A stretch of 64,000 nucleotides of DNA from Escherichia coli (GTDB lineage Bacteria; Pseudomonadota; Gammaproteobacteria; Enterobacterales; Enterobacteriaceae), in the NCBI RefSeq assembly GCF_024298765.1, contig NZ_CP101210.1; one strand, given 5' to 3'. Position 1 is the first letter of the stretch. The number at the start of each line of letters is the position of its first letter. Below are positions 58,601 through 61,600 of the stretch, piece by piece. A program made the position numbers.

Positions 58601-61600
58601 AAACATGCCATGATATGGCACCAACGCCAACAACAAACCGGTGAGAAGAGAAAGTGCCAACGCGGCAAGGGTGATCTGATTTGCAGACACTTGCCGCTTA
58701 TGAAGCCAAAACATCGTCGGCCTTAACAGTGACTGAAAGAGCGGTTTTATCTGGTAGAGCGTCATTATCAATCCTTGATAATTCTGTTTGCGCTATGGTG
58801 CATCAATTGCCCTGGCAGAGATATCGCAACACGCCGCTTCATTAAAAATTCAGAATATATCAAGGTATTGGGGCTCACTGTCAGGAATGATTATCCCCAA
58901 TTAATCAAATAGTTAAAAATATTACGCTGTTATTCAATGCAACTCATCAAGTTTTCTCATCGCTTGTTCCCGTATTGCGCGCGTCTTACCGTTAAGCGCC
59001 AGCTGGCGGACTAAATCCAGTTCAGGGTTAACAAGCTCTAACGCCAGCAAAGGATCACGTTTCAGCCTCGCCTTTAATACATCAACTGGAAAACGGGGAT
59101 TATTCATCGCCACAATCCACCACTCGGGATCAATTTCTGCCGCCAGTACTGCAGGCGGTGTGTGGCGGTTGTTAAGTGCGCCGAACTTGAAAAATGTGAG
59201 ATTGCTTTTCGCCAGTGTACTCCACCATATACGATCCGGTTGTTTTGCCAGTACATCCAGTTGTGCTAACGCATCGGGTTCTAGTGCATAATAAACACGT
59301 AACGCTTCGTTAACCTGCGCACGGGAACTGTTTTCCTGCCTCAGAAAAAACTTCGCCCAAATATCATTTCGTGGCGTGTTTTGCTGTAATTCCTTTAAGC
59401 CTTGGGAGAGTTCGCATTATGGCAAGATCAAATGTCGCAATGTCTCGTCCTTCAAATGCAGCAACGTTGCCTTCATCCAGCATTTGCAATTCCTGCAATA
59501 ATTCAGGAGAAGACTTAGGGCGAAACAGCGCTTCTTTTTTCATCTGATTACAGACATTCCCTGCTATGCGAATATTGCTTCGCTTAAAAATTTCTTTCAG
59601 AGCATCTTCATCATTTATTAGGCCCCAATAATATGCATCAGGATTTATTATCATCAGCGCTTTTTTGACATTTTCAGTGTCATTTTTGTCACTCGCACGG
59701 ACCATGAATTCACTATTTGTCGAAGATGCAACAACAGGTGCAATTATGTCATTGATAAATATCCCGCGCGCATTAATACTTCCCTTAATCGTAGACGGAT
59801 TATCGTAATATGAGTCGATAAATACCAGTCCACTTGCATTTATCGAACCGGTAATTAACAGTGGTGAATCCGTAACTATATTCGTTGCCGTTACGTTACG
59901 TTACGTTACGTTACGTTACGTTACGTTACGTTACCGAGAATAACCCATGGATTAGAAAGAGAGAAAGTGGAAATATTACCTTTGACTGTCAAATTGCCAA
60001 GAACAATCAATTTTTGATTACTCTCTATATTACCTTCTACCATTAAATCGCCACGATGCACTTTCCAGTCCGATGCAGATAAACCGACGGGGACAAGATT
60101 CACGCTACTGTTGATAGCTTGTTCAACTTGTTGTTTATCTTCAGCGGTAGCCGCAGAAAAAAATGGTTCAATATCAACTGCATTTACAACACATCGAAGT
60201 TCCGCCTGTACTGGAAGACTCAGCATAAACAGGGGAAGTAAACCTATCCAGCTGCAAATCCTGGGCTTAAACATATGCACTCCATGCCATTAAAAAAGAA
60301 TAAATATCCTCCGGCATAGCCGGAGGTTTTTCAAATGCGCCTATAAGGCTCTCTTACCAGCCGCGCCCTAACAGGCGCACACGATCTGACATTTGCATCC
60401 AACTTCGTTACTTACGGCCCGTAAACGGGCTGCCCGGATAGGGAATCGATAACTGCTCTCCCATTTTATCCTCTTCAAGCTGGTGCTTTATGTAATCCTG
60501 TATCTTCGCCGTGTTCTTACCCACCGTATCGACGTAGTACCCTCTGCACCAGAACTCTCTGTTCCTGTATTTGAATTTCAAATCACCAAACTGCTCGTAA
60601 AGCATCAGACTGCTTTTCCCTTTCAGATATCCCATAAAGCCGGATACACTCATTTTGGGCGGGATCTCCACAAGCATATGGATATGATCTGCACAGCATT
60701 CAGCTTCAAGAATCCGTACGCTTTTCCACTCACACAGCTTTCTCAAAATACTGCCTATTGCTCTACGCTTCTCTCTGTAGAACACTTGTCTTCGGTATTT
60801 TGGCGCAAAAACTATGTGATATTTACAGTTCCATCGGGTGTGCGCTAAGCTCTTTTCGTTCCCCATTGGGACCCCCTTTTGATTTCTTGTTTGACACTTG
60901 CAGTTGCCAGACCGCAAGGTGTTTTAACAAATCAAAAGGGGTTTTAATAACTGGCTCAAAGCTGAAAGCTTTCCGGAACCCCCAGCCTAGCTGGGGGTTT
61001 TCTGTGCACAAACAAAAGGGAAATGCATCTTTCCCTTTTGTATATTCGTTATTCTCGCGAAATACCGTCCAACGTAGACAACACTTCCTCAGAAAGATGC
61101 AATTTTTCAGCAGCCATATTCTCCCGTAAATGCGCAACAGAAGACGTCCCTGGGATCAGCAAAATATTCGGTGAACGCTGTAACAGCCACGCCAGCGCCA
61201 CCTGCATTGGTGTTGCGCCCAGGCTCGCTGCTACATCCGAAAGTGTGGAGGATTGCAGCGGCGTAAAGCCCCCAAGCGGAAAGAACGGCACGTAGGCAAT
61301 GCCGTCACGAGCCAAAGCATCAATCATTGCGTCATCAGCACGATGAGCAATGTTGTATTCGTTCTGCACACAGACGATTTCGGTAATCTTACGCGCCTCT
61401 GCAACCTGCGTCGGTGTAACGTTGCTCAGACCAATATGTTTTACCAGGCCTTGTTGTTGCATCTCTGCCAGTACGGTCAGGCTGGCTTCAATCGATCCTT
61501 CCGCTGGGCCATGACCATCCCCCATCATAACGCGCAGGTTAACCACATCCAGTGCGCCCAGCCCGAGATTACGTAGATTATCGTGCACCGCTTTTTGCAG

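What the first reader, a model, noticed from the sequence alone, without database searches (positions are those of the whole stretch)
60296..61045. IS200 insertion between pdxI and the ydbD-like gene
A complete IS200-type Y1 transposase gene with flanking perfect hairpins lies directly after the pdxI stop codon and about 15 bp upstream of the ydbD-like start. The hairpin at 60308-60326 is followed by a U-run on the ydbD strand and could terminate transcription entering ydbD. Together with the microsatellite this suggests the gene is silenced at two levels.
Basis: partly seen in the sequence, partly recalled or inferred. Interest (0 to 1): 0.4.

Follow-up and report, generated by a model that had tools for sequence, protein, structure and literature searches.

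The report
Ordinary IS200 copy behind pdxI terminator
This is an ordinary, already-annotated 711-bp IS200 insertion sequence that landed just after the transcription terminator of pdxI in one E. coli lineage; the neighbouring ydbD gene was inactivated by other mutations, not by the insertion.

Summary
The IS200 call is right. The window is E. coli (ynbA, ydbD, pdxI, paaY, all on the minus strand). It carries one intact IS200C copy at 60299..61009 (711 bp), not 60296..61045.

- **Element:** tnpA (60408..60866, minus) encodes a 152-aa Y1/HUH transposase. The left-end terminator hairpin, the stem-loop that hides the ribosome-binding site (Rfam STnc490) and the right-end hairpin (60308..60326) are all present.
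- **Boundary correction:** the hairpin at 61012..61041 is not part of the IS. It is the native pdxI terminator and is present at the empty site. The IS sits directly after its T-tract, with no target duplication.
- **Distribution:** RefSeq annotates the same insertion in 69 of 5426 complete E. coli genomes.
- **"Silenced at two levels" does not hold:** ydbD here is a pseudogene through a 1001-bp internal deletion and a (GTAAC)9 expansion that creates a TAA stop. The same pseudogene occurs without the IS in at least 13 genomes. The same insertion lies next to an intact ydbD in strain 405.
- **Side result:** about 94% of 125 distinct IS200-type insertion sites lie directly after a hairpin plus T-run with the shape of an intrinsic terminator, always in the same orientation. 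A 2025-26 preprint reports this enrichment in part.

The parts
60299..61009 (-). IS200C insertion sequence, 711 bp. In the tnpA sense it reads GTGCACAGAAAACCCCC...GGAGGATATTTATT. No terminal inverted repeats and no target-site duplication.
   Evidence: The empty sites in L001, L003 and L131 differ from the window by exactly this 711-bp block. A 2-nt AA/TT ambiguity is resolved by tandem copies that abut RE...TTATT|GTGC...LE directly (L007, L086). Seven copies at other loci share these ends.
60308..60326 (-). Right-end subterminal hairpin CCTCCGGCTATGCCGGAGG, followed by the 9-nt tail ATATTTATT that ends the IS. It is the presumed TnpA-binding hairpin and is terminator-like on both strands.
   Evidence: Identical in E. 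coli IS200C and Y. pestis IS1541 copies.
60408..60866 (-). tnpA, a 152-aa Y1 HUH transposase (stop codon included). HUH = H61-I-H63; catalytic Tyr125.
   Evidence: PDB sequence matches to IS608 TnpA 2a6m (3.9e-19), ISDra2 2xm3 and Sulfolobus 2ec2 (4.2e-23). Identical to WP_000526135.1 through the 100% DNA identity to L002. Y125F is catalytically dead in PMC4513863.
60873..60941 (-). [quoted passage not shown]
   Evidence: MFE -32.1 kcal/mol, z=-5.3. Corresponds to IS200 nt 69-138 in PMC4513863.
60876..60999 (-). Full-length match to Rfam RF01405 (STnc490), covering the left-end hairpin and the 5'UTR stem-loop.
   Evidence: 146.4 bits against a gathering score of 56, E=3.9e-31, model positions 1-124 of 124.
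60857..60946 (+). Expected position of the antisense sRNA art200. Inferred by coordinate transfer from Salmonella IS200 (start at nt 153/154, about 90 nt); not observed here.
   Evidence: PMC4513863, with IS nt n = window 61010-n. Inference only.
60977..60999 (-). Left-end perfect hairpin AACCCCCAGC-TAG-GCTGGGGGTT (IS nt 11-33). This is the published bidirectional terminator that shields tnpA from outside transcription.
   Evidence: -19 to -22 kcal/mol. PMC4513863 and PMC5435999 (nt 12-34; about 85% termination).
61010..61041 (-). Target: the native pdxI intrinsic terminator (hairpin 61012..61041 on the + strand; in sense AAAAGGGAAAGATGCATTTCCCTTTTGTTT). The IS left end is joined directly 3' of ...TTTTGTTT.
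   Evidence: Present unchanged at the empty sites L001, L003 and L131. z=-5.6..
61049..61909 (-). pdxI (ydbC), pyridoxine 4-dehydrogenase, intact.
58934..60274 (-). ydbD pseudogene (DUF2773 bactofilin; 768 aa when intact).
   Evidence: PGAP 'frameshifted; internal stop' in identical loci. Alignment to the intact gene.
59890..59934 (-). (GTAAC)9 pentanucleotide repeat inside ydbD (ancestral GTAAC-GTGAC). Adds 35 bp and creates an in-frame TAA after codon 117.
59383..59395 (-). Junction of the 1001-bp internal ydbD deletion, between the imperfect direct repeats AAGGAATT(T/A)CAGC.
   Evidence: This junction is present in 75 genomes.

Best explanation
The feature is one intact copy of IS200C, a member of the IS200 group of the IS200/IS605 family.

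Shown here:
- It is a 711-bp element with one gene, tnpA, for a Y1 HUH transposase. It has subterminal hairpins instead of inverted repeats.
- It was inserted without target duplication directly 3' of the T-rich tail (...TTTTGTTT) of the pdxI intrinsic terminator. Its left end faces pdxI, and tnpA runs in the same direction as pdxI and ydbD.
- The insertion is independent of the inactivation of ydbD, which comes from a 1001-bp deletion and a repeat expansion with a stop codon.

Inferred from the family paradigm (IS608, ISDra2):
- It moved by single-strand 'peel and paste' transposition. TnpA binds the end hairpins on the top strand, excises a single-stranded circle, and pastes it 3' of a short T-rich target.
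- The top strand lies on the G-rich strand, which is the lagging-strand template, as the paradigm expects.

Inferred from published work on Salmonella IS200:
- The copy keeps itself nearly silent through the left-end bidirectional terminator, the stem-loop that hides the ribosome-binding site, and the antisense RNA art200.
- These same structures make the insertion polar. Little transcription from pdxI should now reach ydbD.
For: - Identity: Pfam Y1_Tnp 3.8e-38; NCBIfam transpos_IS200 equivalog 147.7 bits; HUH motif and Y125; PDB relatives IS608 and ISDra2 TnpA; Rfam STnc490 146 bits, full length; PGAP name 'IS200C family transposase' in 69 genomes with the same insertion.
- Ends and absence of duplication.
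- Target is the pdxI terminator.
- General rule: 99 of 125 distinct IS200-type left ends are preceded by a strict hairpin plus T-run, against 1.5% of random positions and 14.5% of positions after TTTT. 94% have a 42-nt upstream MFE of -12 kcal/mol or lower, against 15-18% of controls; p=1e-55. In 6 of 6 E. coli sites with an annotated gene on the left-end side, that gene runs in the same direction and lies within about 110 nt of the left end.
- Strand: GC skew is negative on the + strand across the whole window.
- Independence from ydbD decay.
- Regulation and polarity: PMC4513863, PMC5435999.
Against: - No expression data were available, so the polar effect on ydbD and the silence of tnpA at this locus are inferred, not measured.
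- Single-strand transposition has been shown biochemically for IS608 and ISDra2, not for IS200 itself.
- Rfam's STnc490 model matched the tnpA-sense strand, whereas the literature describes STnc490/art200 as antisense. I did not resolve this orientation issue.
- Whether the IS-free pseudogene genomes never had the IS or lost it by precise excision cannot be decided.
Confidence: 0.93

Rival explanations
1. One reading: the IS200 insertion is a functional silencing lesion of ydbD. It would act together with the microsatellite as a second layer of gene shut-off, possibly reversible (phase-variable).
For: The IS separates ydbD from pdxI by 711 bp and places two terminator-like hairpins upstream of it. 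IS200 was discovered as a polar insertion (PMC4513863). No outward-facing promoter-like site was found in the IS.
Against: - The coding sequence is irreversibly broken by a 1001-bp out-of-frame deletion.
- Any (GTAAC)n with n of 3 or more contains TAA in every frame, so changes in repeat number cannot restore the reading frame (and direct reading of the sequence).
- The identical pseudogene exists without the IS in at least 13 genomes.
- The identical insertion exists next to an intact ydbD in strain 405.
Confidence: 0.07
2. The position directly behind a terminator reflects survival, not choice. IS200 inserts at any T-rich single-stranded site, and only copies in harmless intergenic spots such as 3' ends of genes persist.
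For: Insertions inside genes would be purged. All data here are standing copies, not fresh transposition events. The IS608 paradigm needs only a 4-5 nt target read by a guide sequence (PMC7290912, PMC5934647).
Against: - Placement is precise: the hairpin foot lies 4-11 nt from the junction, T occurs at position -2 in 121 of 125 sites and at -5 in 120 of 125, and the strand orientation is always the same.
- Only 14.5% of positions after TTTT have such a hairpin.
- Copies insert behind the right-end hairpin of another copy, forming abutted tandems in two species.
- Both the paaY and the pdxI terminators have been hit in this one region.
Confidence: 0.3
3. The transposase belongs to a different or larger element: an IS605-type two-gene element, a REP-associated tyrosine transposase (RAYT), or a composite transposon.
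For: A weak NCBIfam hit to REP_Tyr_transpos, 32 bits.
Against: - That hit is far below its cutoff of 80.
- No tnpB is present. The inserted block is exactly 711 bp relative to empty sites.
- No second IS200 copy exists in the 64-kb window.
Confidence: 0.01

Closest known systems
IS200 of Salmonella enterica (707-709 bp) and the E. coli isoform IS200C
   Same: Single tnpA gene. The left-end terminator hairpin, the stem-loop that hides the ribosome-binding site, the position of the start codon (nt 144), Y125, the size and the absence of inverted repeats all match. The protein is identical to RefSeq WP_000526135.1 'IS200C family transposase'.
   Different: Nothing of substance. 711 bp against 707 bp for the Salmonella reference; isoform-level sequence differences only.
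IS1541 of Yersinia pestis / Y. pseudotuberculosis
   Same: 87.5% DNA identity over the full length. Identical left-end and right-end hairpins. Same placement behind hairpin plus T-run targets, and same abutted tandem copies.
   Different: 710 bp. The first 7 nt of the left end differ (GTGCCCA against GTGCACA). High copy number in Yersinia.
IS608 (H. pylori) and ISDra2 (D. radiodurans), the mechanistic paradigms of the IS200/IS605 family
   Same: Homologous Y1 HUH TnpA (E=4e-19 and 2e-16 to solved structures). Subterminal hairpins, no target duplication, and insertion 3' of a short specific sequence with the left end adjacent.
   Different: These elements also carry tnpB. Their targets are TTAC and TTGAT, with no reported need for a hairpin in the target. 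In IS200 the left-end hairpin lies only 10 nt from the tip, and an A-run (GAAAAC / GAAAAA) precedes both hairpins. That A-run could be the guide for a T-run target (inference).
Bacterial group IIC introns
   Same: They insert directly after the stem-loop and T-run of intrinsic terminators, in one orientation (PMC1702495, PMC7923331). This is the same kind of landing site seen here for IS200-type elements.
   Different: Unrelated machinery: a ribozyme and reverse transcriptase acting through RNA, not a DNA transposase.

Membership tests
IS200/IS605 family, IS200 group | Encodes a Y1 HUH transposase (TnpA, about 150 aa) with an HUH motif and a single catalytic Tyr | tested here: met
   Pfam Y1_Tnp 130.7 bits. 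NCBIfam transpos_IS200 147.7 bits against a cutoff of 55. H61-I-H63 and Y125. PDB homologues.
IS200/IS605 family, IS200 group | tnpA is the only gene; the element is about 0.7 kb and has no tnpB | tested here: met
   The inserted block is 711 bp relative to the empty site. The ORF list shows no second plausible gene.
IS200/IS605 family, IS200 group | No terminal inverted repeats; subterminal hairpins at both ends | tested here: met
   The ends GTGCACAG... and ...ATATTTATT are not inverted repeats. Left-end hairpin 60977..60999 and right-end hairpin 60308..60326.
IS200/IS605 family, IS200 group | No target-site duplication on insertion | tested here: met
   Filled and empty sites compared. The only ambiguity is 2 nt (TT). 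Directly abutted tandem copies show that TT belongs to the right end.
IS200/IS605 family, IS200 group | Orientation-specific insertion, with the left end 3' of a short conserved target sequence | tested here: met
   125 distinct sites. T at -1 in 103, at -2 in 121 and at -5 in 120; consensus TTTNTT. The right end terminates in the similar TTATT.
IS200/IS605 family, IS200 group | IS200-specific left-end regulatory structures (terminator hairpin and stem-loop that hides the ribosome-binding site) | tested here: met
   Rfam RF01405, 146 bits, full length. Folds. Coordinates match PMC4513863.
IS200/IS605 family, IS200 group | Present in multiple copies at different loci, with polymorphic presence or absence (mobility) | tested here: met
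   7-13 matching places per record in the listed records that carry this insertion, and up to 36 places per genome overall. Copies at uspA, ygbN, uhpT, potE and other loci. This locus is filled in 69 genomes and empty in most.
IS200/IS605 family, IS200 group | Strand-specific single-stranded 'peel and paste' transposition | not testable with these tools
   Only indirect evidence: the top strand lies on the G-rich strand, the lagging-strand template.
REP-associated tyrosine transposase (RAYT) | Scores above the NCBIfam REP_Tyr_transpos cutoff; single-copy gene flanked by REP arrays | tested here: not met
   32.2 bits against a cutoff of 80. The gene is multi-copy and lies inside a discrete 711-bp mobile block.

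The most novel reading that the evidence does not exclude
IS200-group elements (IS200, IS200C, IS1541 and relatives in Vibrio, Desulfovibrionaceae, Bacillota and other taxa) may home on intrinsic terminators by their structure. On this reading the single-stranded form of a Rho-independent terminator (GC-rich hairpin plus T-tail) mimics the element's own right end (hairpin plus ATATTTATT). The conserved A-run 5' of the end hairpins would read the T-tail. The element would therefore be pasted 4-11 nt behind the terminator hairpin, running in the same direction as the upstream gene. That gives a harmless landing site and a second shield against read-through, and it explains the abutted tandem copies. 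The pdxI and paaY terminators in this region would be two such recurrent targets. A 2025-26 preprint reports the statistical enrichment. The hairpin-mimicry mechanism and the nucleotide-level rule are, as far as I could find, not described.
Probability: 0.25. Interest if true: 0.55.

Novelty: already known. Interest (0 to 1): 0.2.

Why it matters
For this window it matters little. It is a routine IS annotation and a useful lineage marker. The insertion is shared by 69 complete genomes; many of the listed records come from poultry, pig or human isolates, including APEC O78:H4. The correction does matter for interpretation. The pdxI terminator should not be counted as part of the IS, and ydbD should be recorded as a decayed pseudogene rather than a regulated or phase-variable gene. 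The side observation is of wider interest: IS200-type elements land behind intrinsic terminators with near-nucleotide precision. It would explain why this 'dormant' IS family is so well tolerated, and it suggests a target-recognition step beyond the IS608 tetranucleotide model.

Tried and rejected
1. A second IS200 copy, or a composite structure, in the window: none found.
2. An outward promoter from the IS into ydbD: the consensus scan found none in the IS. The number of promoter-like sites in the region equals the shuffle expectation.
3. Literature check on whether terminator targeting by IS200 is already described. Six full-text searches and eight papers were read in part. Only the preprint 10.1101/2025.07.22.666184 reports terminator enrichment upstream of IS200/IS605. 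The key family review (He et al. 2015, PMID 26350330) is not held, so prior description cannot be excluded.
4. The idea that the microsatellite could act as a reversible switch: rejected. (GTAAC)n contains TAA in all three frames once n reaches 3, and the gene also carries the 1001-bp deletion.
5. RAYT membership: rejected.
6. The strict perfect-stem terminator detector missed 26 of 125 sites. Inspection shows that most of these are hairpins with a mismatch, bulge or long loop, so I added an MFE-based test.

Full report
**Context.** The window is Escherichia coli. Around the finding, all genes lie on the minus strand in the order paaY (62140..62730), pdxI/ydbC (61049..61909), an IS200 transposase gene (60408..60866), ydbD (58934..60274), ynbA, ynbB, ynbC. 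A 951-bp query across the finding is 100% identical to many RefSeq chromosomes. There the genes are annotated 'IS200/IS605-like element IS200C family transposase', 'pdxI' and a DUF2773 pseudogene.

- The 152-aa ORF is a Y1 HUH transposase: Pfam Y1_Tnp E=3.8e-38 and NCBIfam transpos_IS200 equivalog, 147.7 bits against a cutoff of 55.
- It has the HUH motif H61-I-H63 and Tyr125. Tyr125 is the residue whose Y125F change kills Salmonella IS200 TnpA (PMC4513863).
- By sequence it matches the solved TnpA structures of IS608 (2a6m, 3.9e-19), ISDra2 (2xm3) and two Sulfolobus elements.
- Rfam RF01405 (STnc490) matches 60876..60999 on the minus strand over the full model, at 146 bits against a gathering score of 56.

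**Where the element ends.**
- Uninterrupted pdxI-ydbD spacers in strain PapRG-06-5 (L001), K-12 (L003) and the near-identical strain JNE120442 (L131) read ...CCATTAAAAAAGAA|ACAAAAGGGAAATGCATCTTTCCCTTTTGT.... The window differs from them by one inserted block of 711 bp.
- Seven IS200C copies at different loci share exactly the sequence GTGCACAGAAAACCCCC...CCGGAGGATATTTATT and diverge outside it.
- A 2-nt (TT/AA) ambiguity at the junction is resolved by tandem copies in E. coli (L007) and Y. pestis (L086). There the right end ...ATATTTATT abuts the next left end GTGC... with nothing in between.
- The element is therefore 60299..61009, with no target-site duplication.
It swallows the hairpin at 61012..61041, which is the native pdxI intrinsic terminator (present at the empty sites; z=-5.6).
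- The IS begins 39 nt after the pdxI stop. It ends 24 nt before the annotated ydbD ATG.

**Anatomy** (IS nt n = window 61010-n):
- Left-end perfect hairpin, nt 11-33 (60977..60999). This is the published bidirectional terminator (nt 12-34; about 85% termination; PMC4513863, PMC5435999).
- Stem-loop in the 5'UTR that hides the ribosome-binding site (60873..60941; -32 kcal/mol, z=-5.3).
- tnpA start codon at nt 144.
- Expected antisense art200 on the + strand at about 60857..60946 (coordinate transfer only).
- tnpA stop at 60408.
- Right-end hairpin at 60308..60326, followed by the 9-nt tail ATATTTATT.
- No other IS200 copy lies in the window. No promoter-like site faces out of the IS.

**How it got there and how it works.**
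- The left end is joined directly 3' of the T-tail of the pdxI terminator (sense strand: AAAAGGGAAAGATGCATTTCCCTTTTGTTT|GTGCAC...).
- The same holds for all six other E. coli copies examined. Each sits behind the hairpin plus T-run of a gene that runs in the same direction (uspA, uhpT, potE and others), or behind the right-end hairpin of another IS200.
- I scanned one genome per species for the exact left-end hairpin. Together with the E. coli copies above and the window, this gave 125 distinct insertion sites. They come from Yersinia (IS1541), Vibrio, Brenneria, Edwardsiella and several metagenome-assembled genomes labelled Mailhella, Desulfovibrio, Bacillota, Peptococcaceae and Oxalobacter.
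- Of these, 99 of 125 pass a strict test (perfect stem of at least 5 bp, then a T-run) immediately 5' of the left end. The same test passes 1.5% of random positions and 14.5% of positions that follow TTTT.
- The 42 nt upstream fold to -12 kcal/mol or lower in 94% of sites, against 15-18% of controls. Medians are -18.2 and -6.6 kcal/mol; p=1e-55.
- T occupies position -2 in 121 of 125 sites and position -5 in 120 of 125.
- Both ends of the IS carry GAAAA(A/C) directly 5' of their hairpin, and the right end terminates in TTATT. In the IS608 paradigm a guide sequence 5' of the hairpin reads the cleavage or target site. An A-run guide reading a T-run target is therefore a reasonable inference, though untested.
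- GC skew is negative on the + strand across the whole window. The IS top strand therefore lies on the G-rich strand, the lagging-strand template, as expected for this family.
- Single-strand 'peel and paste' transposition itself is inferred from IS608 and ISDra2. It was not tested.

**The 'two-level silencing' interpretation.** ydbD is 768 aa when intact (L001, L003, L133). In the window it carries two lesions:
- (GTAAC)9 where intact genes have GTAAC-GTGAC. This adds 35 bp and gives a TAA stop after codon 117. Any (GTAAC)n with n of 3 or more has TAA in all three frames, so it cannot act as a reversible switch.
- A 1001-bp out-of-frame deletion between the imperfect repeats AAGGAATT(T/A)CAGC, with its junction at 59383..59395.

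PGAP marks the gene 'frameshifted; internal stop'. The links between these lesions and the IS are as follows:
- The deletion junction is present in 75 genomes, and the IS at this site in 69.
- At least 13 genomes have the same pseudogene with an uninterrupted spacer. L131 was verified base by base.
- Strain 405 has the nucleotide-identical insertion (705 of 711 IS positions identical) next to an intact, non-pseudo ydbD.
- All four combinations therefore exist, and the IS neither caused nor is needed for the loss of ydbD.

**Comparison and novelty.** Every defining feature of the IS200 group that could be tested is met (see the membership table). The element is already annotated in RefSeq, so the finding is already known and ordinary. 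The terminator-homing pattern is the only part of wider interest. The preprint 10.1101/2025.07.22.666184 already reports that terminator-like sequences are most strongly over-represented upstream of IS200/IS605 elements. I found no description of the nucleotide-level rule, the resemblance of the target to the right end, or the abutted tandems. The landing site resembles that of group IIC introns (PMC1702495).

**Verdict.** The identification as IS200 is correct. The silencing interpretation is not supported. Interest is low.

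Noticed in passing
window 59890..59934 (and L002, L130-L132): The (GTAAC)n repeat in the ydbD pseudogene is hypervariable among genomes whose flanks are at least 99% identical. Verified counts are n=9 (window, L130, L131), 10 (L002) and 21 (L132). The match spans differ in steps of 5 bp, implying n from about 7 to 21. Long pentanucleotide microsatellites are unusual in E. coli. Intact ydbD genes have GTAAC-GTGAC, so one G>A change seeded the array.
   Followed up: partly
L010-L129 and L004-L009 (left-end flanks); window 61010..61041: IS200-type elements sit almost always directly behind a GC-rich hairpin plus T-run (intrinsic-terminator shape), in one orientation. 99 of 125 sites pass a strict test, against 1.5% of random positions. 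94% pass an MFE test, against 15-18% of controls. The right end of the IS (hairpin plus ATATTTATT) has the same shape.
   Followed up: yes
L007 (E. coli), L085, L086, L088 (Y. pestis): Head-to-tail tandem IS200/IS1541 copies abut with no base between the right end and the next left end. This is the junction expected in the excised circle, or the result of insertion behind a resident right-end hairpin.
   Followed up: partly
L133, L134, L135; window 62060..62100 (paaY terminator): In other strains the paaY terminator has also been hit by IS200: L135, and at a position 3 nt away in L134. In L134 a 95.9%-identical IS200 has the paaY terminator on its left-end side and the ydbD upstream sequence on its right-end side, and pdxI is absent. 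This looks like recombination between IS200 copies at the two terminators that deleted pdxI.
   Followed up: partly
window 61910..62140 and about 62730..63070: This lineage lacks the large ydbA/BigA autotransporter gene found between paaY and pdxI in K-12 and PapRG-06-5. It retains only a 153-bp remnant of paaX next to paaY, so most of the paa operon appears to be deleted.
   Followed up: no
L010-L083: The exact 21-nt IS200 left-end hairpin occurs in metagenome-assembled genomes assigned to distant taxa (Mailhella, Desulfovibrio, Bacillota, Peptococcaceae, Oxalobacter, Saccharibacteria, Elusimicrobiaceae). It usually lies at contig ends and has its own variant of the first 7-12 nt of the left end. 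This could reflect real wide horizontal spread or binning contamination.
   Followed up: no
window 60876..60999: Rfam RF01405 (STnc490) matches the tnpA-sense strand and includes the left-end terminator hairpin. The literature defines STnc490/art200 as the RNA antisense to the tnpA 5'UTR (PMC4513863). The Rfam model seems to represent the sense 5'UTR rather than art200.
   Followed up: no
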